A DNA stretch of 64,000 nucleotides from positions 1-64,000 of IMG/VR virus record IMGVR_UViG_3300037010_000365. One strand, given 5' to 3'. Source of the DNA: a virus. The notes below the pieces were generated by a model. It was not told the origin of the DNA and did no database searches. It saw only the letters and a list, made by a program, of their open reading frames with translations. The position numbers and the translations under genes were made by a program. Below, in pieces: positions 33,253 through 50,091 of the stretch (positions are counted from its first letter, which is position 1; every line of letters begins with the position of its first letter).

Positions 33253-33940
33253 CAGATAATTTTAACAGTTCGGCCATTATATACCGGTGTGGCCTTGCGA
33301 GAAAGTTTCAATGATGTTCTGTACATTGTCGGATTACGAATACATCTACTCCCTTTTCTTTCCGCTGGATAATGAACCGGTTATTAATTAAAGTAATAAT
33401 AAACAGATAACGCTGTTGAAAATTAATCTAATTAATAATTCGGTATTAATCCAGTTACCTCTAGTAAAAGGTAATCGCAGAAGCGAAGGAAATACTCAGT
33501 TTCTTTTAGTGATTAAACACTACCAGTTCATTCCCGTAGAACTGTCTTTCCTGATAACTTTTTAAGGCGTTATCACCAAATCAATATTAATTTCATGTAA
33601 GTCCATTACACTACTCATAACATCAACAGTAAAGAATACGTATACTCAATACATGAAACTACGACTATCTTAGGTATTCGTTTCATTGGGCTGTCTACCC
33701 GAACCATCCTGTCTTACTAGGATATCCATCGTCGCTGGGTGCAAAGGGGAGCAGTGCCAGCATTTTATTTTTAAGTTTTGGTCTACAATAGAAGTATGTT
33801 TAATTTAGATAAAGGGATATAGAATCCTGCATTATCAGAGTTCTAGACGTATCATAGCATAGTCAGATAGTAACTCAACCGTATGGATTGGTGTTTAACG
33901 GTTCCTAATTTGCATTTAACTTGGGTATGTTGTTTGTATT
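33250..33940 (-). ncRNA. Candidate large structured non-coding RNA (or promoter-primed replication origin)
   Basis: No ORF of 60 aa or more; many hairpins; leftward early and late promoters immediately upstream. Confidence 0.45.
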
Positions 33941-33943
33941 TTC

Positions 33944-34110
33944 TATTTATAGAATTCTATTTATAACACATATCAGTCTAAAAGTAAACAACTAAATGAT
34001 AAAAAGTTAAAATAAACTTGTTGTTCGGTTGACACAACTATAGAGTAATAAATAATTAATGAATAGAATCTTATTTATACATTATAACATGAATTAGACT
34101 AAAAGTAAAC
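33944..34110 (-). promoter_or_regulatory. Leftward promoter cluster: two early-type TTTACT-N17-TATAA(A/T) and three TATAAATA late boxes
   Basis: TATTTATA at 33944, 33958 and 34072; AGTAAA at 33983 and 34104, each 17 nt from a -10 hexamer; lies in a ~55-nt tandem duplication. Confidence 0.7.
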
Positions 34111-42032: not shown

Positions 42033-43418
42033 ATGTCTAATAAAATTTACTGTCTGGATACTAATGTTTTATTATCTGATCCAACGGCGATTTACAACTT
42101 CGATGAACACCAAGTCTATATTCCTTTTATAGTTTTAAGCGAATTGGATAGTAAGAAAGTAGGACATACCGATTTAAACCGTAATGCTCGTGAAGCTACT
42201 CGGCAGTTAGAAATTATAATGCAGACTGAGGTTTCCAATAATCTCTATAAAATAAACGAAGCTGGTGGAACATTATCTTTCACCACTCAAGATCTAAAAA
42301 CATCCATCAGCGGTGAAATGACAAATGACGATATTATCATTGCAGAAGTTAGCAAATTAAGCGAAACTATTAAAGACAAGCAGGTTATTCTAGTTTCAGC
42401 TGATATTAACATGAGAGTTAAGGCCAAGTCACTATTGCTATTAGTAGAAGCTTATAAACACAATCAAGTTAACATAGCTGATTCTGACGTCGTAGGCCTT
42501 GGTTATAAGCTTGCTCACGATCATTTTTCTCAAAACACTATTGATCGTTTAGTTCAAGTATTTCATTCTAGTAAGGACACGATTACAGTACCTTACACTG
42601 GTGATGAACTAGAGCCTTTTACTATCAATGGTTACATTGCTGTATCTGATAATGTTCAATTTGCTGTGATTGATCAAGATGAGCTAAAAGTAACTCTAGC
42701 CCCTGTTACACAATACAATGGTAGAGCTAATGTTTGGGGTATTAGAGCTAAGAACGCTGAACAGAATATTGCGTTAAACATGTTAATGGATAAGAATAAG
42801 CACCTGGTTGTAGTCGGTGGGCAAGCAGGGTCAGGTAAAACTATTATCGCATTGGCAGCTGCGTTAGAATTAGTAATTGAGCAGAAGCTTTACGAACGAA
42901 TTGTTTTCATGCGGGAGACTGTAGTTGCAGCTGGTGCTGAGGAGATTGGTTTCTTACCAGGTACGTTAGATGATAAGATGATTCCATATTTAGGCGCGCT
43001 AACAGAAAACCTAAAGCAACTGACTGGTTTTGCTGAACAACCTAAAACTTCAAAGAAACAAACAACTCCTGAAAAAATTACTAGCCCTTTAGGTCAGTTT
43101 GAAGATATAATTGAGATTAATAGTATCGGACTCATGCGCGGCACAAGCATTCCTAATGCTATTATCATTATTGATGAGTCACAAAACTTGACTAAAGATA
43201 TGGTAAAGATGTTACTCACACGAGCAGGTGAAGGTACTAAAATCATAATGCTAGGTAACATGAATCAGATTGATAATGTATATTTGTCAAAGAACAATAA
43301 TGGTATGGCGATTGTTGTAGACAAGTTCAAAGATTGTGATATTTTTGGATATACTATTCTTCAGCAGACTGTTAGATCTAAGCTTGCTGAAGAAGCAGTA
43401 AATAGACTAGTTGGTTGA
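42033..43418 (+). CDS. phoH: PIN-PhoH family ATPase
   Basis: LDTNVLL PIN domain, GQAGSGKT, IGFLPG, MRGTS, IIDESQN, LTRAGEG. Confidence 0.92.
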   Translation: MSNKIYCLDTNVLLSDPTAIYNFDEHQVYIPFIVLSELDSKKVGHTDLNRNAREATRQLEIIMQTEVSNNLYKINEAGGTLSFTTQDLKTSISGEMTNDDIIIAEVSKLSETIKDKQVILVSADINMRVKAKSLLLLVEAYKHNQVNIADSDVVGLGYKLAHDHFSQNTIDRLVQVFHSSKDTITVPYTGDELEPFTINGYIAVSDNVQFAVIDQDELKVTLAPVTQYNGRANVWGIRAKNAEQNIALNMLMDKNKHLVVVGGQAGSGKTIIALAAALELVIEQKLYERIVFMRETVVAAGAEEIGFLPGTLDDKMIPYLGALTENLKQLTGFAEQPKTSKKQTTPEKITSPLGQFEDIIEINSIGLMRGTSIPNAIIIIDESQNLTKDMVKMLLTRAGEGTKIIMLGNMNQIDNVYLSKNNNGMAIVVDKFKDCDIFGYTILQQTVRSKLAEEAVNRLVG

Positions 43419-43474
43419 TTTTAAATGATATTCATACTTATTTTGATTTATTTTGAAATAAGTATGAAATAACA

Positions 43475-43505
43475 GTTTACTTCTTAGCAAGATGTAGTAT
43501 ATAAT
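43475..43505 (+). promoter_or_regulatory. Early-type promoter
   Basis: GTTTACTT..TAGTATATAAT, same family as the 44423/45482/46876 copies. Confidence 0.7.
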
Positions 43506-43557
43506 TATCACAAGTTAAGAAGTTAACGATTTTAAATAAATGTAATAGGCGAATATC

Positions 43558-43737
43558 ATGGATCAGAAAGAATTTGTAACAATCAACGGTACAATTGTTG
43601 AAGCGGAAATGACTTTTGAAGAGATTGCTAAAGAATTAGGTATCACCGTTCAAGGCGCTCGCGCATTATATTGTCGCGCCATTATCAAGTTGCAAAAACA
43701 AGCTAAGCGCTTAGGGTTAGACGTATATCTATCGTAA
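43558..43737 (+). CDS. 59-aa stand-alone sigma-70 region-4-like HTH protein (not in the ORF track)
   Basis: Own translation: MDQKEFVTINGTIVEAEMTFEEIAKELGITVQGARALYCRAIIKLQKQAKRLGLDVYLS. Confidence 0.65.
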   Translation: MDQKEFVTINGTIVEAEMTFEEIAKELGITVQGARALYCRAIIKLQKQAKRLGLDVYLS

Positions 43738-43766
43738 TAATTTTTACATCATTTGAGTATACAGAC

Positions 43767-44423
43767 ATGCAAACATTTAATGAGTATCTATTTGAAATGT
43801 CTATAGCTATGTTAGGCGATTGGAAAGATGGGTATGCGAATCTAACGCCAATTAGTAAACTAGTAACAGATAAAAACTGGGAACTAATTACAACTATAGA
43901 AATATCAGGCGATGTATACGAACTAAGAAAACTCAAAGAAAAAGAAGTATATATCTTGGGTAAATTTGTTGAAGCTGAAGACTTGGAATTAACTACCAAT
44001 GAATTAGTTACTAAATTCAACGTCGTATTTCAAATCAACCTAGGTAGAGATTATAAAGTCGAATCACAATTATCGCGTATTGGTGGTAATTATACACGCA
44101 TTGCTAATGTAAATGGTGTTGTTGTTGACACATCTATGCAAGGTAAGGGAATTGCTCTAACAATTTATAAATGGTTAGTAAATGATCAGGGTTTTGTAAT
44201 AATGGGTGATTCTAAACAATACTTTGGCGCAAGAAAACTATGGTCAAAACTAAGTAAGCAACATGATATAGTTGTTGATTTGGTTGATATTAAGCGAGGA
44301 AAGCTAATAGAATCTCATGTTAAACTACATCAAGGCGATCATGAAACTGACTTTGACGCTCGCTTATGGTCATTAGGTAAAGAAAAGAAAAACATTAGAC
44401 CTGTTCTACGAAAAATATTGTAA
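43767..44423 (+). CDS. Capsid-targeting-sequence protein with GNAT-like domain
   Basis: MQTFNEYLFE N-terminus; VVVDTSMQGKGIALTIY..GARKLWSKL acetyl-CoA-binding-like motif. Confidence 0.55.
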   Translation: MQTFNEYLFEMSIAMLGDWKDGYANLTPISKLVTDKNWELITTIEISGDVYELRKLKEKEVYILGKFVEAEDLELTTNELVTKFNVVFQINLGRDYKVESQLSRIGGNYTRIANVNGVVVDTSMQGKGIALTIYKWLVNDQGFVIMGDSKQYFGARKLWSKLSKQHDIVVDLVDIKRGKLIESHVKLHQGDHETDFDARLWSLGKEKKNIRPVLRKIL

Positions 44424-44522
44424 ATAATTGTTTACTTTCTAATAAGATAGTATATAATTATTACAAGTTAAGGAAGCTAACCGCATAAATTAAAATACTT
44501 TGATTTAATTAAATGCTTCCTG
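44423..44522 (+). repeat. Early promoter + stem-loop cassette, family A copy 1
   Basis: AATAATTGTTTACTTT..TATATAATTATTACAAGTTAAGGAAGCTAAC..AATGCTTCCTG. Confidence 0.85.
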
Positions 44523-44530
44523 TTAAACTT

Positions 44531-44556
44531 AGGACTGTAGCTCAGTTGGTGAGCAA
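44531..44556 (+). pseudogene. 5' fragment of a tRNA (acceptor 5' strand + D arm)
   Basis: AGGACTG-TA-GCTCAGTTGGTGAGC; complementary to the CAGTCCT-A-CCA end at 45646. Confidence 0.5.
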
Positions 44557-44654
44557 CAGTTTGTCATCATTGATAAGCCTTTACGCGGCGATGATATAAG
44601 TAAACATTTATTTGTTGAAACTAATTATCAAAAAATTAGCGACTAGCTAAAACT

Positions 44655-44730
44655 CCTCCGGTAGCTCAACTAGTAGAGCAGTTCTCTCATAAAGGACCGG
44701 TTGCAGGGGCAGAGCCTGCCTGGAGGACCA
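44655..44730 (+). tRNA. tRNA-CAT, probably Ile2 (lysidine substrate); atypical T loop GGCAGAG
   Basis: CCTCCGG/CTGGAGG acceptor, GTTCT-CTCATAA-AGGAC, GCAGG/CCTGC T stem, ACCA end; next to tilS. Confidence 0.8.
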
Positions 44731-44870
44731 ATTATGTGTTATGATGCATTGTACGAATATATTGATATTCTCCTGTCGATAGAAAGCAATACATTCAGCT
44801 ACCAATCGTTTAGCTGTTTACCTGACTGCTGATCAGAATTTGGTTTATATAAAATTCAAAGGACTGTATA

Positions 44871-45476
44871 ATGAGACTAGCTTGCAAACTACCTCATGAT
44901 TGTTATATTGCGTTTAGCGGGGGTTCTGATTCATCTGCTCTAACACATTTCGCTTTATCACATCCTAAGCGCAAAGTTGCGTTAGTATATGTTGTTTATC
45001 AAGACTTCAACCACGTAGATTCTGAACTGGCGTATGTAACAACTGCAGCTAAAGAATATAATCTAGATTTGATTTTATACTATGCTGAATTAAATCCAGG
45101 TAACCTAACAAAAGAGCAGCATTGGTCTATTCAACGCAACAAGTTCTTTAACACTCTTGATAAACCAGTATTAACCGGTCATAATTTAGATGATGCGTTA
45201 GAGTGGTTTATGATGACATCAACAAGAGGGAATATGATTGGTAAGTTAATGCCAATTATTAACAAAAATGTTCAGCGACCTTTGTTATTCACTAACAAAC
45301 AAACTGTAATGAAATATATCGATAAACACGATATTAAATACTTTTACGATATAACTAATAGCGACACCAGCATTGCTCGCAATGAGATTAGGCACAACGT
45401 AATTCCTAGTCTGGTTAAGATTAACCCTGGAGTTTACAGGTCACTTATTAGACGGTACGGTAACATACCGGGCTAA
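44871..45476 (+). CDS. tilS: tRNA(Ile)-lysidine synthetase, minimal PP-loop form
   Basis: AFSGGSDS, TGHNLDDALE, RPLL, DITNSD..RNEIRH. Confidence 0.85.
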   Translation: MRLACKLPHDCYIAFSGGSDSSALTHFALSHPKRKVALVYVVYQDFNHVDSELAYVTTAAKEYNLDLILYYAELNPGNLTKEQHWSIQRNKFFNTLDKPVLTGHNLDDALEWFMMTSTRGNMIGKLMPIINKNVQRPLLFTNKQTVMKYIDKHDIKYFYDITNSDTSIARNEIRHNVIPSLVKINPGVYRSLIRRYGNIPG

Positions 45477-45481
45477 GTTGA

Positions 45482-45579
45482 AATAATTGTTTACTTTCAA
45501 TCAATATAAGTATATAATTATTACAAGTTAAGGAAGCTAACAGCATAAATTAGAAATTGCTTTAATTTAATGCTTCCTG
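45482..45579 (+). repeat. Early promoter + stem-loop cassette, family A copy 2
   Basis: Near-identical to 44423-44522. Confidence 0.85.
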
Positions 45580-45587
45580 TTAAATTT

Positions 45588-45674
45588 GGTACTGTATCTT
45601 AGTTGGTCAGAGTGGTAGATACATGGTCGTTGGTTCAAGCCCAACCAGTCCTACCAGTCCTACCAGTCCTACCA
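45588..45674 (+). pseudogene. Degenerate tRNA (Ile-GAT-like) ending in a triple CCAGTCCTA tandem repeat
   Basis: T arm GTTGG-TTCAAGC-CCAAC; collapsed anticodon arm; CCAGTCCTA x3 at 45645-45671. Confidence 0.55.
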
Positions 45675-45712
45675 TATAAATATAATTTTATTAATAAATT
45701 GAGGTAACCGAT

Positions 45713-46072
45713 ATGAAAACGTTTTTAGAGTTCTTAAATGAAAGTAATAACAAATTAACTAGTAACCCTTCTAAGAAATTCATCGATATGATGCCGACGA
45801 TCATAGATTCGATTTTCGATAGCTGGTTCAAAGCTAATGGGGTGAATATATTGAGTTCGAAAGTTGTTAACGGTAATCGTGCATATTTTGGTTCAAAGGG
45901 TGATAAATATTATAAGTTCTCTTTCTATTTAGGTCGTTCTTTCTCTACTGTTAAATTTTCAATGTTGAGTGAAGATAATATTAAAATTCTAACAAAAAGA
46001 CCTGATACTGATCCAGCAGAAATTATGGACGTTAGTCAATTTAAGTTTATCGATGATATTTTAACTTTGTAA
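45713..46072 (+). CDS. Putative internal head protein (capsid-targeting N-terminus)
   Basis: MKTFLEFLNE; TATAAATA at 45675; GAGG RBS. Confidence 0.6.
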   Translation: MKTFLEFLNESNNKLTSNPSKKFIDMMPTIIDSIFDSWFKANGVNILSSKVVNGNRAYFGSKGDKYYKFSFYLGRSFSTVKFSMLSEDNIKILTKRPDTDPAEIMDVSQFKFIDDILTL

Positions 46073-46099
46073 TCAGCTATAAAGGCAAAAGATTAACAA

Positions 46100-46865
46100 T
46101 AAACAGTCGATTCGATTGATATTATATTATTAATCAAATCGACACTCTCGAGATAATGCAACCTTTACGAGGTTCGAGAGATAAAGTAGCACAATCCATG
46201 ACGTGTCTTATGGTATAGTAGAAGAGTTTAATTCTCTTTCTAGTTTCGGTGACAGACATAATGACAAACGTTTCAAGCCTGGAGTTGCGCGAAAACTAAT
46301 AGCATAGAGTTTGGATGCCTCGATAGGTGCTCGTAACACCGGTTACGTGAAAATTGTGATACTCCGACCCGAAGTATATCTAATCTATGATGTTTATTTG
46401 TTTTTCAGGGAAATCCAGAAAAACATTAAATGGCGCAAGGAAATAACAGCTACTGCTGTCGCCGAATAAACTTCTTATCAGATATATAGATACTAGTGAA
46501 GATGGATTTGATCACCATCAACGCCGGAAGGGTGCATAGTTCAAAATCGCGAGATTACGAAAAAACTTGTTGTATAGTAAATGCTGTATAGAAACGTTAG
46601 ACCCACAGTCTAAAAGTCTGCTTTAGCAACAGTTTCATGGCGACGGTTATGAAATAGTTTAACCAAAATACAACAGTCAACTGGAAAGACTTAGAAAATA
46701 GTACCAGCGTGAAATGCGAATGTTGCAGACGAAACGTGCAAGCTGGAGACATAACCAGCATCAACATGAAAGAGTAGGACATGAGGTATACTCATGAGAT
46801 ACGCATAAATTAATGAAGATAGCGCTAAAGCGTTCTTCGAGTATGTTTGTAATAACTTCAAAACC
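46100..46865 (+). ncRNA. Candidate giant structured ncRNA in the tRNA region (GOLLD/ROOL size class)
   Basis: About 770 nt with no + strand ORF; more than 15 visible hairpins, several nested; strand inferred from context. Confidence 0.5.
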
Positions 46866-46875
46866 AATAACATAA

Positions 46876-46978
46876 AATAATTGTTTACTTTTCCATCAAG
46901 ATAGTATATAATTATTACAAGTTAAGGAAGCTAACAGCATAAATTAGAAATTATTTTGGTTTAATTAAATGCTTCCTG
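46876..46978 (+). repeat. Early promoter + stem-loop cassette, family A copy 3
   Basis: Near-identical to 44423-44522. Confidence 0.85.
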
Positions 46979-46984
46979 TATAAG

Positions 46985-47082
46985 TTAACTTTGTCGGCTA
47001 GTATCTCAACCGCCTTCTAAGCGGTCGTTAATCGAGTAATTGGAGTATGTAGGTTCGAACCCTATCTAGCCGACAAAGTTAA
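46985..47082 (+). ncRNA. D-armless tRNA-Arg(TCT)-like RNA with a 17-bp terminal stem
   Basis: TTAACTTTGTCGGCTAG/CTAGCCGACAAAGTTAA; ACCGC-CTTCTAA-GCGGT; GTAGG-TTCGAAC-CCTAT. Confidence 0.65.
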
Positions 47083-47248
47083 TTTGAAATGAAAATATGA
47101 GAATTATACGGGATATTGTGGCTATATTAGCGATAGATAACCGAATATTATTTCATAAACCCATTTGATTCTCACACAACTCTAGTTATAATGATTACAC
47201 ACTGCGGTGCCACTCGAAAATCTACTAATCCTGAAAGGAACCTATATC

Positions 47249-48692
47249 ATGACAACATTTACACAAGCGGTTGAATCAGCAAACAAGAAAGGTCACACAA
47301 AGACAGAAAATGGAATGAAGACCCGTAAATCTTCATTAAGTTCGGTTGTAGACTTTTTCTATGGAGTTGGTGGTAATCGAGCTAATCCAGAAAATTCATT
47401 GAAACTTTTTACAGCAGCATTACAAGAAGATGTTGATTTGGCAATTCGTGTGTTATTGTGGTCTCGCGATGTTCGTGCTGGTGCAGGGGAACGTAACCAA
47501 TTTCGAATCATGTTGCAATATTTGGCGATGAATGAATTCGATCTAGGTAAGCGGGTTTTAACAAAAATTCCTGAACTCGGGCGGTGGGATGACATTCTAA
47601 CTTTAATCGGAACACCATTAGAACATGAAGCATTGGAAATGATTTCTTCTGCTCTGAATGCTGGTAATGGATTGTGTGCTAAGCGGATGCCTAGAGAGAA
47701 GTCTGCTCATAAATCTACAGCATTGAAGATTATGAAGTATATGGATCTAAAACCAACTCAATATCGTAAATTATTGTCACAAAATACGGAAGTTGTTGAA
47801 CAATTAATGTGTGCTAACGAATGGCCGGTAATTAACTATTCTCATGTTCCATCTATAGCAGCTAAGATGTATTCTAAAGCATTTGCGAAACGAGATTCAT
47901 TACGATACGAAGAATACTTGACAAAGTTGATAAAGGGTGATACTGATGTCAAGATTAACGCTGGTGCGATTTTCCCCCACGATGTTATTTCTTCAATTTG
48001 GGATCATACGACTAAATCAGAAGAAATGCGAGTTCAGGCTCAGCGGGATGCGTTACCAAACTTTATGGAAGGTAAGGAATATACTATATTACCCCTGGTT
48101 GATGTTTCTGGTTCGATGGGATTCAACCTCAGTAAATCGAATACAACTGCGCTACAGGTTGCCGTGTCGCTTGGGCTGTATATTTCAACGAAAATCAGGG
48201 TGCCTTCAATGGTTTAATTTGTACATTTAGCACAGCTCCGAAGTTACATAAGATTTATTCTAACGGTATTAAGCAACAGTTGGAAGAAGTCAAACGTTTG
48301 GATTGGGGATGGAGACGAATATTGAAGCTGCATTTTCAGAAATACTGAAAGTTGCTACTAAAAATTCTGTACCACCATCAGAAATGCCAAACGTTATTTT
48401 GATTTTGTCTGATATGCAGTTCGATGAATGTATTAACAGCGGAGATTCGCTGAGCGCAAATTCAATGATTCGTGAAAAATACAAAGAAGCAGGATATGAA
48501 GTTCCAAATATTGTTTTCTGGAATCTGAAGACTTCTAACGGTGTACCTGTTAAGATGGGTACGAGCGGCACCGCTTTGGTGTTAGGGTTCAGTCCATCTA
48601 TTCTGAAATCGGTATTAACATCTATAGAAGATATGACACCAGTTGGTGTGATGATGAAGACTATTATGAAAGATTGTTATTCAATTGTTTGA
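47249..48692 (+). pseudogene. DUF2828-type TROVE/vWA-like protein with two frameshifts
   Basis: TENG, RDVRAGAGER, IPELGRWDD, INYSHVPS, DVSGSM (MIDAS), ILSDMQFD, IVFWNL, GFSP; frame breaks near 48191 and 48305. Confidence 0.75.
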
Positions 48693-48902
48693 AATAAAAT
48701 AATATAAAATAATCATTTACTTTTATCGGTCGAATGATTATAATGAACACGTTAAGGAAACTAACAGTAATAACATCCAACGTGTTATCTAGGTTGAGCC
48801 TTTATGAGTCGATTATATAAGTATTTGGTTAAATTGAAACTACTTCAAATCAACTAAGCACACTATATAAATATAGTTTTAATAAACTTTAGGATATGCT
48901 AA

Positions 48903-49348
48903 ATGAAAACAGTTAAAGAATACTGGTAAACAAGCTCAGAAACCCAACTCATAGAAGCGGTTGTTGTAAATGAGGGAACCCTTGGATCGTGTTTAATGAT
49001 GTTGCGAAATGACCAAAAGGTTGTTGACTATTGTGAAAGCATCGCACGACAGAAGTTTAATCCAAAGTTACTAGAATTTAATTTTATGACTAATGGTTAT
49101 GACCCACAACACCGCCCCCAATTCCATATACTCCTTCTGATACTAATTCAGTAACTCGGTATGATATGTTGATTGAGAGTGGAAATATTGGAACAGTAGA
49201 AGTCCATTATGGCGATACCACATTAATTGATAGAAAAGAATTAAGAAGAATTTTCACTTATTATGATGGTACGTTTCAATTCATATCGAAAGAATTGTCT
49301 ATGATAGGAAATATTGAAAAATACTTCTTTACATTTCTGATGTGTTAG
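48903..49348 (+). pseudogene. Decayed capsid-targeting-sequence gene
   Basis: MKTVKEYW*TSSETQLIE, apparent frameshift near 49120 into ORF 49166-49348; TATAAATA at 48866. Confidence 0.5.
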
Positions 49349-49390
49349 TTTATAATGAACTAAATGAGGTTAAGAATCTCAACATATAAA
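49266..49390 (+). repeat. Direct repeat family B copy 1 (gene tail + early promoter)
   Basis: ATGGTACGTTTCAATTCATATCG..CTTTACATTTCTGATGTGTTAGTTTATAATGAACTAAAT. Confidence 0.85.
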
Positions 49391-49425
49391 TATAATTTTA
49401 ACAATTAATGAAGAGCGCGGGTAGT

Positions 49426-50091
49426 ATGAAATCATTTAAAGAATTCTTGAAAGTTGATAGTGAACCACAGTTAACTAATTTAGTTGAAGGGTTTAACTAT
49501 AAAAATCCATTATTTCATCCTGATAATAGTTTATTAGGGAATGCTTGCTTTTACAGAGATAATTTCTATCTTATTATTGAAGCGAATAGAACTCCTGATG
49601 ACCTGTTATTTTGTATGGTGGATAGCGATAATAACTTTAAACCGTTTATATCACCGACAATTGAAAAAGCCAGAGACTCCGATAGTGTCGGTCCAATTGT
49701 ATCAGCAACAGGTGGTAGAACTATTGTAGCGTTTGATACAAACGGAATGGTTGGTGGAGTTATTGGGTCAATAGTTGAAAAATCCATTAACGGATATGGT
49801 GTGAAGGGATTTACCTTTGATGACATGATATATTCTAATCGCAACATGAAAGACGGCGATTTTAGATATACTTGGGATTCAATTGCATTTTCGATTGAAT
49901 CTTTTAAAGGAAAAGATGTTCTTTTGAAACAAAAAGAATTTACAGACTTTGAAGTGAATCTAATTAAAAAATTAGCGTTTGCCTCATCGAAAAAGGTGAA
50001 ATTTGGTAAAGTTAAATCAGATGAAATAGTTTATTTCTCAAAAAATAAACTAGAAGCAAGTCCAACACTATATTACGTACAGTTTTCGTAA
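49426..50091 (+). CDS. Putative internal head protein (capsid-targeting N-terminus)
   Basis: MKSFKEFLKVDSE from the ATG at 49426; TATAAATA at 49385. Confidence 0.55.
   Translation: MKSFKEFLKVDSEPQLTNLVEGFNYKNPLFHPDNSLLGNACFYRDNFYLIIEANRTPDDLLFCMVDSDNNFKPFISPTIEKARDSDSVGPIVSATGGRTIVAFDTNGMVGGVIGSIVEKSINGYGVKGFTFDDMIYSNRNMKDGDFRYTWDSIAFSIESFKGKDVLLKQKEFTDFEVNLIKKLAFASSKKVKFGKVKSDEIVYFSKNKLEASPTLYYVQFS

What the first reader, a model, noticed from the sequence alone, without database searches (positions are those of the whole stretch)
46100..46865. Candidate giant ornate ncRNA (~770 nt) in the tRNA region
Seen: no + strand ORF and dense nested pairing: CTCTCGA/TCGAGAG enclosing AACCT/AGGTT, GGAGT/ACTCC, TATATCT/AGATATA enclosing GTTTATT/AATAAAC, TGTTTTTC/GAAAAACA, ACAGC/GCTGT, GATGG/CCATC, AATC-GCGA-GATT, TTAGAC/GTCTAA, TTTCAT/ATGAAA, GCTGG/CCAGC, CATGAG/CTCATG. 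Established: GOLLD and ROOL RNAs are of this size class and often sit near phage tRNA genes. Inference: a GOLLD/ROOL-like or new large RNA; I cannot assign the family by eye.
Basis: partly seen in the sequence, partly recalled or inferred. Interest (0 to 1): 0.75.

Follow-up and report, generated by a model that had tools for sequence, protein, structure and literature searches.

The report
Candidate structured RNA locus, T4-like phage
An 800-base stretch without genes in an uncultured T4-like phage folds into RNA hairpin domains far better than chance and matches no known RNA family, so it is a reasonable but unproven candidate for a new phage non-coding RNA next to a Ro60-like RNA-binding gene.

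Summary
Window 46073-46875 has no credible ORF on either strand. Stop codons occur at random-sequence density in all six frames, and no Pfam or PHROG trace was found.

The + strand folds far better than shuffles (z -5.2), while four coding controls of equal length give -1.05 to +1.0. The signal is uneven. The 5' hairpin pair and three roughly 110-130 nt stem-closed domains carry it. Two segments fold like shuffles, and the long-range helix that would close one giant fold is at chance level.

It is not GOLLD, ROOL, an intron, RNase P, tmRNA or YrlA: no Rfam hit appears even at E<=10.

No homologue was found in any collection I could read. Related contigs in four mat and sediment metagenomes carry the tract at about 90% identity. 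They show frame-breaking indels, one hairpin rebuilt with different paired letters, and wobble-preserving changes that fit only the + strand.

The tract lies in a cassette bounded by early promoters, just upstream of a tRNA-like element and a Ro60-like DUF2828 gene. In other phages that gene is preceded by YrlA-like RNAs.

Verdict: plausible new multi-domain phage ncRNA, about 50% likely. There is no expression evidence and no proper covariation test.

The parts
46073..46875 (+). ORF-free tract between the stop of the 119-aa ORF and the next early-promoter cassette. This is the candidate RNA locus.
   Evidence: no frame; no Pfam/PHROG trace in 10 stop-to-stop frames; none of 7 small ORFs is in the 15-billion protein collection; z -5.18 on +, -3.43 on -.
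46106..46143 (+). Hairpin H1 (7 + 8 bp, A/T-rich, no U-tract after it). Likely 5' boundary or processing hairpin.
   Evidence: Pair probability 0.99. With H2, z -6.17. One X4 contig has a different 8-bp inner helix that is still fully paired, and C46108>U gives U.G (table 5c; refolded).
46145..46180 (+). Hairpin H2 (7-bp stem enclosing a 5-bp stem).
   Evidence: Pair probability 0.92-0.97. Unchanged in the X4 contig refolded.
46198..46217 (+). 5' strand of the predicted long-range helix. It pairs with 46787-46806 (19 bp with two bulges, 2 G.U).
   Evidence: Pair probability 0.90-0.97, but a helix of this score arises in 21 of 200 shuffles. An X1 contig skips or replaces 46189-46305. Treat as unproven.
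46374..46487 (+). Domain D1: an 8-bp closing stem, a second 8-bp stem and two hairpins (three-way junction).
   Evidence: z -4.51, 0 of 200 shuffles. In X1 contigs, 46376 A>G, 46378 A>G and 46380 C>U keep pairing as G.U on + only, and 46382 A>G turns an A.C into G-C.
46392..46564 (+). Block that further contigs share while their flanks differ (loose ends at 46392 and 46564).
   Evidence: table 7. Several X1 and X4 contigs begin or stop matching at these two places.
46567..46676 (+). Domain D2: a 9-bp closing stem enclosing two hairpin arms.
   Evidence: z -3.60, 1 of 200 shuffles. Inner hairpins have pair probability 0.93-0.96. The common variant 46606 C>T falls in a hairpin loop.
46677..46810 (+). 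3' domain with hairpins 46742-46759 and 46781-46796 (or the 3' strand of the long-range helix).
   Evidence: z -3.19. One X4 contig lacks 51 nt between two ACCAGC direct repeats (46700-46751).
46815..46838 (+). Last hairpin before the next promoter. Weak terminator candidate.
   Evidence: Pair probability 0.98. Segment z only -1.47. Not called by the terminator scan.
45490..45518 (+). T4-type early promoter (TTTACT-17-TATAAT) of the repeated cassette. Probable start of the transcript that runs into the tract.
   Evidence: Copies at 43476, 44431, 45490, 46884 and 48716.
45588..45653 (+). tRNA-like element without an anticodon arm, first product of that transcript.
   Evidence: tRNA model, 33.3 bits. 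Not called by ARAGORN.
45713..46072 (+). 119-aa ORF with no known family. Absent from one related contig that keeps the tract.
   Evidence: Joint 45656>46137 in X4.
46884..46976 (+). Next early promoter plus conserved leader hairpin (46926-46976). This is the 3' limit of the tract.
46995..47073 (+). tRNA-like element (Arg-type anticodon arm, no normal D-arm) in front of the Ro60-like gene.
   Evidence: tRNA model, 34.1 bits. Not called by ARAGORN.
47207..48692 (+). DUF2828 + DUF7788 (Ro60/TROVE-vWA-like 'RNA-binding protein') gene, split into two frames in this assembly.
   Evidence: Pfam E 1e-28 and 7e-30. 707 phage records carry homologues.

Best explanation
The tract is a non-coding RNA locus read on the + strand. 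It covers about 730 nt (roughly 46106-46840) and is built from a 5' pair of strong hairpins plus three stem-closed domains of about 110-130 nt, joined by loosely structured linkers. It belongs to no described RNA family.

The following steps are inferred, not shown. It has no convincing promoter of its own. It is therefore most likely made as the downstream part of the early transcript that starts at the promoter cassette at 45490. That transcript first yields a tRNA-like element, so tRNA-type processing and cleavage at hairpin H1 would free the RNA.

The proposed function is inferred only from position and from analogy. The locus sits directly upstream of a tRNA-like RNA and a Ro60-like DUF2828/vWA gene. 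I therefore propose that the RNA acts with that RNA-handling module as a bound scaffold, decoy or substrate mimic, in the way Y RNAs act with Ro60.
For: Non-coding. There is no frame on either strand, no protein-family trace, and no called or homologous small protein. Related contigs carry indels of 1-2 nt at 46304, 46419, 46474, 46478, 46481, 46519 and 46592.

Structured.
- z -5.18 against -1.05 to +1.01 for four coding controls and -1.14 for a non-coding neighbour.
- 46001-46250 is the lowest of 256 windows of 250 nt across the 64 kb.
- Domain z values are -3.2 to -6.2.

Strand.
- Excess stability is larger on + (vs 8; 74 vs 75).
- 26 G.U pairs occur in the MFE.
- Natural variants give G.U on + that would be A.C on -.

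Natural variation. H1 is rebuilt with a different, fully paired 8-bp helix. Three changes in the D1 closing stem keep pairing, and one creates a pair.

Cassette logic. In three neighbouring cassettes the next promoter follows the ORF stop at once. Only this cassette carries 800 extra bases.

Context.
- One contig joins a tRNA-like 3' end to H1 and the tract without the 119-aa ORF.
- Two contigs skip about 3.73 kb (45696-49425 and 45748-49484) holding most or all of the 119-aa ORF, the tract, the tRNA-like element and the DUF2828 gene.
- In other phage lineages, ORF-free and tRNA-free gaps of 450-850 nt precede DUF2828. Sub-threshold YrlA hits lie in them.
Against: - No homologue was found outside near relatives: the phage collection, 160 DUF2828 loci, the nearest IMG/VR relatives, and a covariance model of D1. 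No proper covariation test was therefore possible.
- Two of seven segments fold like shuffles, and the two central 250-nt windows are unremarkable at z -1.2 and -1.6.
- Domain boundaries were picked after folding.
- Some common variants do not respect the model. 46342 G>A opens a closing pair, and 46549 G>A changes a GCGA tetraloop.
- Parts of the tract are dispensable in single contigs: 117 nt replaced and 51 nt deleted.
- The variant evidence rests on a few low-depth contigs, one with only 29 nt on its shorter side.
- There is no own promoter and no clear terminator.
- The link to DUF2828 is positional only. A promoter lies between them, and the window lacks both a YrlA hit and the Y-like motif seen in other phages.
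Confidence: 0.5

Rival explanations
1. Left-over or spacer DNA of a promoter-bounded cassette in a hyperplastic region, for example a long-dead ORF. Only the hairpins H1/H2 work, as 3'-end, stability or processing signals of the upstream transcript. The rest has no dedicated role.
For: - The strongest fold signal is in H1/H2, z -6.17.
- The central 250-nt windows are ordinary.
- Parts are replaced or deleted in relatives.
- Cassettes of this type shuffle ORFs of unknown function in T4-type phages (PMC2839356, PMC4122927).
- No homologue was found anywhere else.
Against: - The core without H1/H2 still gives z -3.31 on + against -1.46 on -.
- D1 and D2 reach z -4.5 and -3.6.
- A non-coding neighbour in the same module is not structured, z -1.14.
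- No trace of a former frame is left, yet one related contig covering 46289-46627 keeps that part at about 90% identity, within the range of contigs on the coding flanks (table 8).
- Changes in the D1 stem preserve pairing.
Confidence: 0.3
2. One integrated giant ornate RNA. A single tertiary fold is closed by 46198-46217/46787-46806, with the architecture of GOLLD or ROOL but in a new family.
For: - The whole-tract MFE nests all domains inside that helix with pair probability 0.9 or more.
- The size and the tRNA neighbourhood match the class (PMC7567579; 10.1101/2024.12.08.627333).
Against: - The closing helix is at chance level, 21 of 200 shuffles.
- An X1 contig skips or replaces its 5' strand.
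- Contigs share the 46392-46564 block with unrelated flanks.
Confidence: 0.1
3. A DNA-level element such as a replication origin, recombination hotspot or packaging signal.
For: - Both strands fold better than shuffles.
- The region is a hotspot of indels between repeated cassettes.
Against: - Excess stability is clearly larger on + and depends on G.U pairs.
- Variants keep pairing only at RNA level on +.
- There are no repeat arrays.
Confidence: 0.05
4. Small protein genes, or a gene read with another genetic code.
For: - Minus-strand ORFs of 60 and 61 aa with ATG starts exist.
- The 51-nt deletion is a multiple of three.
Against: - All three stop codons occur in every frame.
- There are no family hits.
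- The ORFs are not called in the collection and have no homologues.
- All neighbouring genes and promoters read rightwards.
- Frame-breaking indels occur in relatives.
Confidence: 0.03
5. A diverged member of a described family (GOLLD, ROOL, group I/II intron, RNase P, tmRNA, YrlA).
For: Only size and neighbourhood.
Against: - No Rfam hit at E<=10 with permissive filters on the tract alone.
- ARAGORN finds no tmRNA.
- The Y-like motif of other DUF2828 phages is absent.
Confidence: 0.02

Closest known systems
GOLLD and ROOL large ornate RNAs
   Same: - 600-800 nt, with no ORF.
- Located in phage genomes beside tRNA genes.
- Function unknown (PMC7567579; 10.1101/2024.12.08.627333).
   Different: - No match to either Rfam model, even at E<=10.
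- No evidence for one integrated fold.
- Known only from one phage lineage.
Unclassified large ncRNAs of lytic phages: two lncRNAs of Staphylococcus phage K near its tRNA genes, and the ~800-nt RNA of Vibrio phage ICP1
   Same: - ORF-free tracts of similar length in virulent phages.
- Phage K's lie by tRNA genes.
- No family assignment (PMC9241854, PMC7567579).
   Different: - Those RNAs are shown to be abundantly transcribed. Here there is no expression evidence.
- Sequence relatedness was not tested directly. A blastn search of the whole phage collection gave no match.
Y RNAs / YrlA with Ro60 (Rsr)
   Same: - Structured, stem-closed, partly tRNA-like RNAs encoded next to a Ro60-type gene.
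- In other phages, YrlA-like hits lie in the gap just before DUF2828.
- The window has a tRNA-like element at that position.
   Different: - The 770-nt tract gives no YrlA hit and lacks the UUUAG...UUCAGCAA / CUGUU closing motif of those phages.
- It is separated from the gene by a promoter.
Stable RNAs C and D of the phage T4 tRNA region (own knowledge)
   Same: Non-tRNA stable RNAs that are co-transcribed and co-processed with tRNAs in a T4-type phage.
   Different: About 120-140 nt each, against about 730 nt here. No sequence comparison was possible with the tools.
PeSL promoter/stem-loop cassettes of T4-type phages
   Same: - The tract is bounded by repeated early-promoter plus stem-loop elements.
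- Relatives differ by cassette-sized indels (PMC2839356, PMC4122927).
   Different: PeSLs describe the borders, not the content. Described cassettes carry ORFs, whereas this one carries 800 nt without one.

Membership tests
GOLLD RNA | Match to the Rfam covariance model (conserved 3' half) | tested here: not met
   No hit at gathering score or at E<=10.
GOLLD RNA | Size of about 800 nt, ORF-free, beside tRNA genes in a phage | tested here: met
ROOL RNA | Match to the Rfam covariance model | tested here: not met
   No hit at E<=10.
ROOL/GOLLD | Homo-oligomeric cage assembly | not testable with these tools
   Needs cryo-EM or native gels (10.1101/2024.12.08.627333).
Group I / group II intron, RNase P RNA, tmRNA | Match to the Rfam models; tmRNA call by ARAGORN | tested here: not met
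Y RNA / YrlA | Match to Rfam YrlA | tested here: not met
   None in window 45500-47300 at E<=10. The same model hits L048, L145 and L052 just before their DUF2828 genes.
Y RNA / YrlA | Closing-helix motif of the DUF2828-linked modules in other phages (UUUAG-N5-S-UUCAGCAA) | tested here: not met
   No match in 46073-47206 with up to 3 mismatches. Window-wide count is at chance.
Y RNA / YrlA | Encoded next to a Ro60-type gene | tested here: met
   The DUF2828 + DUF7788 gene starts about 340 nt after the tract. That DUF2828 is Ro60/TROVE-like rests on my own knowledge and on 'RNA-binding protein' annotations.
Structured ncRNA (generic) | Folds better than shuffled sequence, strand-specifically | tested here: met
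Structured ncRNA (generic) | Significant covariation among homologues | tested here: inconclusive
   Only fragments of variants are visible. H1 is rebuilt and 4 changes in or beside the D1 stem are compatible, but 46342 and 46549 are not.
Structured ncRNA (generic) | A discrete stable transcript | not testable with these tools
   No RNA run holds the stretch.
Protein-coding gene | Open frame, family match or conserved frame in relatives | tested here: not met

The most novel reading that the evidence does not exclude
A new family of roughly 700-nt multi-domain RNA that is the RNA partner of the phage Ro60-like DUF2828/vWA protein, in effect an oversized or multi-module Y-RNA analogue. It would be released from a tRNA-like precursor and used by T4-type phages for RNA surveillance, or against host tRNA-targeting defences.
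Probability: 0.15. Interest if true: 0.75.

Novelty: new variant of a known kind. Interest (0 to 1): 0.45.

Why it matters
Large structured RNAs of phages (GOLLD, ROOL, and the abundant unclassified RNAs of phage K and ICP1) still have no known function.

A further, unrelated example would show that the class is broader than the described families. This one sits in a T4-type early transcription unit beside a tRNA-like RNA and a Ro60-like gene. That position offers a concrete, testable partner: does the DUF2828 protein bind this RNA?

The side observation may be the more general lead. In other phages DUF2828 genes are preceded by arrays of YrlA-like modules.

Tried and rejected
**Homologue searches that found nothing**
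- blastn of the tract against 50,697 phage records.
- nhmmer and blastn against 160 DUF2828 loci from IMG/VR and JGI metagenomes.
- The three nearest IMG/VR relatives by UvsX, at 59-66% identity. They also lack DUF2828.
- Exact peptide scans of IMG/VR with the 119-aa ORF, the PP-loop protein, DUF2828 and PhoH.
- A degenerate 25-mer covering two known haplotypes, in IMG/VR and in GTDB genomes.
- DUF2828 peptides in GTDB genomes.
- A covariance model of D1 over 2 Mb of loci. The best foreign hit had E 0.25.
- Earlier-findings look-ups by place and by sequence.

**Tools and caps**
The contigs behind P0001 and P0002 and the Logan contigs could not be fetched.
- Read laying is capped at one call, and 712 further variant rows were not shown.

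**Expression**
- No RNA holder is listed among the sequencing runs. This says nothing about expression.

**Other tests**
- A weak 44-nt blastn hit in L054, L064, L109 and L111 lies inside an ORF and is chance.
- RNA.duplexfold on 260-nt arms was uninformative. I replaced it with a local helix score.
- The first whole-window z-scan timed out.
- Coding readings were rejected.
- Depth figures were not used to rank parts, as the tool warns.

Full report
**Setting.** The window is part of an 82-kb IMG/VR virus record, about 46% complete. Its replication and recombination genes are T4-type: SbcD/SbcC-like gp47/gp46, UvsX and PhoH.

Around the finding all genes read rightwards. They are separated by a repeated element of about 75-100 nt. 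The element holds a T4-type early promoter (TTTACT-17-TATAAT) followed by a conserved leader hairpin, at 43476, 44431, 45490, 46884 and 48716. This matches the promoter/stem-loop cassettes (PeSLs) described for hyperplastic regions of T4-type phages (PMC2839356, PMC4122927).

Three of the cassettes are followed by aberrant tRNA-like elements: 44655-44727, 45588-45653 and 46995-47073. The tRNA covariance model scores them at 34-42 bits, and ARAGORN does not call them.

The gene after the finding is DUF2828 + DUF7788. It is a Ro60/TROVE-vWA-like 'RNA-binding protein' found in 707 phage records.

- Between the stop of a 119-aa ORF (46072) and the next promoter (46884), the longest ORF with a start codon is 52 aa on + and 61 aa on -.
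- Stop codons of all three kinds occur in all six frames, 20-26 per + frame and 16-18 per - frame. By my own composition estimate this is about the density of random sequence, so neither a decayed frame nor a recoded stop is visible.
- Ten stop-to-stop frames give nothing in Pfam or PHROGs. The one exception is an AcrZ match at E 0.047 (13.7 bits against a cutoff of 26.2), which I treat as noise.
- None of seven small ORFs was ever called in the 15-billion protein collection. The longest - strand frame wholly inside the tract (64 aa, 46600-46791) has no homologue.

**Is the folding more than chance?**
- The 766-nt tract folds at -197.4 kcal/mol against -168.2 for shuffles, z -5.18. The reverse strand gives z -3.43.
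- Four coding windows of the same length give z +0.81, -1.05, +1.01 and -0.09.
- An ORF-poor neighbour in the same module gives -1.14.
- In a scan of 256 windows of 250 nt (mean z -0.63, sd 1.35), 46001-46250 is the lowest of all at -4.53. The two central windows are ordinary at -1.2 and -1.6.
- After removing the 5' hairpins, the core 46185-46810 keeps z -3.31 on + but only -1.46 on -.

By segment, with 200 shuffles each:
- H1-H2: -6.17
- D1 (46374-46487): -4.51
- D2 (46567-46676): -3.60
- 46677-46810: -3.19
- 46275-46373: -0.46
- 46488-46566: -0.65

These boundaries were taken from the fold itself, which flatters the numbers.

The MFE closes the whole core with a 19-bp helix, 46198-46217/46787-46806, at pair probability 0.9 or more. 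A helix of that score appears in 21 of 200 shuffles, so a single giant fold is not demonstrated.

**Known families.** Rfam 15 gives no hit in the tract at gathering score. It gives none at E<=10 either, both when the tract is searched in 1.8 kb and when it is searched alone with the most permissive filters. The only row is a chance CRISPR-repeat match at E 5.7. ARAGORN finds no tmRNA. GOLLD, ROOL, introns, RNase P, tmRNA and YrlA are therefore excluded as far as these models can see.

Four public runs from microbial-mat and sediment metagenomes do hold the stretch or close relatives. Laying their contigs on 43000-50000 gave the only comparative evidence.

- (a) Relatives carry indels of 1-2 nt at seven places between 46304 and 46592, so no frame is conserved.
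- (b) One X4 contig joins a tRNA-like 3' end (only 29 nt on that side) through 34 other letters to 46137. Refolding it shows hairpin H1 rebuilt. The inner 8-bp helix has a wholly different sequence but is again fully paired, and C46108>U in the outer helix gives U.G. H2 is unchanged. That contig lacks the 119-aa ORF.
- (c) Two X1 contigs differ upstream of 46392. Within the D1 closing stem, 46376 A>G, 46378 A>G and 46380 C>U keep pairing as G.U, and 46382 A>G turns an A.C mismatch into G-C. All four would be mismatches on the - strand. About half of random transitions in a helix would preserve pairing, so this is suggestive, not proof.
- (d) The common variant 46366 G>A turns a U.G into U-A, and 46606 C>T lies in a loop. 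However, 46342 G>A opens a loop-closing pair, and 46549 G>A alters a GCGA tetraloop.
- (e) Parts behave as blocks. Several contigs share 46392-46564 with unrelated flanks. One skips or replaces 46189-46305. One lacks 51 nt between two ACCAGC direct repeats.
- (f) Two contigs skip about 3.73 kb: 45696-49425 (shorter side 23 nt, below the tool's 30-nt caution) and 45748-49484 (side 35). The skips hold most or all of the 119-aa ORF, the tract, the tRNA-like element and the DUF2828 gene. They lie between two copies of a CATATAAATATAATTTTA repeat.

**Context in other phages.** Of 114 DUF2828 loci with enough upstream sequence, 31 have an ORF-free gap of at least 500 nt within 3.5 kb upstream. In several lineages 450-850 nt of it is not tRNA.

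In L048 and L145 (identical gaps) and in L052, the Rfam YrlA (Y RNA-like) model gives sub-threshold hits immediately before the gene, at 42 and 34 bits. By eye the gaps read as arrays of modules. Each is closed by a covarying helix flanked by UUUAG...UUCAGCAA and CUGUU. The L048 gap of 737 nt folds at z -3.08.

The window's tract occupies an analogous position and has a similar size. It has neither a YrlA hit nor that motif, so the resemblance is positional, not a family relationship.

**Reading.** The best-supported view, about 0.5, is a + strand, multi-domain non-coding RNA locus of a new family.

It most probably forms the downstream part of the early transcript from the 45490 promoter and is processed at the tRNA-like element and at H1. 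Three observations lead to this:
- There is no convincing promoter of its own.
- The only terminator-like call, at 46104-46118, overlaps H1 and lacks a U-run.
- In neighbouring cassettes the next promoter follows the ORF stop at once, so the extra 800 nt are exceptional.

A role with the adjacent tRNA-like RNA and the Ro60-like protein is inferred from position and from the analogy above, and I give it no more than about 0.3.

The main rival, 0.3, is that only H1/H2 work as transcript-end or processing hairpins and the rest is cassette debris. One integrated giant RNA (0.1), a DNA-level element (0.05), small proteins (0.03) and a known family (0.02) follow.

**Novelty and interest.** Large ORF-free RNAs near phage tRNA genes are a known kind: GOLLD and ROOL, the phage K lncRNAs (PMC9241854) and the ICP1 RNA (PMC7567579). 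This would be an unrelated new instance with a testable neighbour. Without expression data or a real covariation test it remains a candidate. Interest 0.45.

Noticed in passing
L048:3883-4619 (= L145:5572-6308); L052:8858-9500; also L058:8909-9753, L020:9333-9967, L141:2810-3496, L113:3681-4266: In other phage lineages the DUF2828 (Ro60-like) gene is preceded by ORF-free, tRNA-free gaps of 450-850 nt. In L048, L145 and L052 these hold sub-threshold YrlA (Y RNA-like) hits. By eye they read as arrays of modules, each closed by a covarying helix flanked by UUUAG...UUCAGCAA and CUGUU. This may be a DUF2828-linked Y-RNA array that is not annotated.
   Followed up: partly
window 45588-45690: The tRNA-like element lacks the anticodon arm (tRNA model, 33 bits). 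By eye its 9-nt 3' acceptor strand (CAGTCCTAC) stands in three tandem copies. It sits right after a TilS-like PP-loop ORF (44871-45476). Many metagenome contigs match only its 3' half and carry a normal CAU anticodon arm before it.
   Followed up: partly
window 47207-48692: The DUF2828/DUF7788 gene is split into two frames in this assembly (ORFs 47207-48217 and 48303-48692). Contigs in all four runs, most of the depth in three of them, carry an extra G after 48304, and some replace 48118-48324. This is either a frameshifted pseudogene or an assembly error.
   Followed up: partly
window 45676-45693 and 49384-49401: An 18-nt repeat containing a late-promoter-like TATAAATA precedes both the 119-aa ORF and the 227-aa ORF. 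Two metagenome contigs skip the 3.73 kb between the two copies, so the whole module (tract, tRNA-like element, DUF2828) is an indel among relatives.
   Followed up: partly
window 33300-34065 (- strand): A second ORF-free tract, flagged by other first-stage notes, folds at z -3.43 on the - strand with 0 of 20 shuffles as stable. It may be another structured RNA.
   Followed up: partly
window 48693-49407: An ORF-poor stretch of about 700 nt follows the DUF7788 ORF and holds two promoter cassettes (48716, 49328). Its fold is not better than shuffles (z -1.14).
   Followed up: partly
window 43476, 44431, 45490, 46884, 48716: Five copies of a T4-type early promoter plus a conserved leader hairpin (PeSL-like). 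Unlike the described PeSLs, the conserved hairpin lies downstream of the promoter, and three copies are followed by tRNA-like elements.
   Followed up: partly
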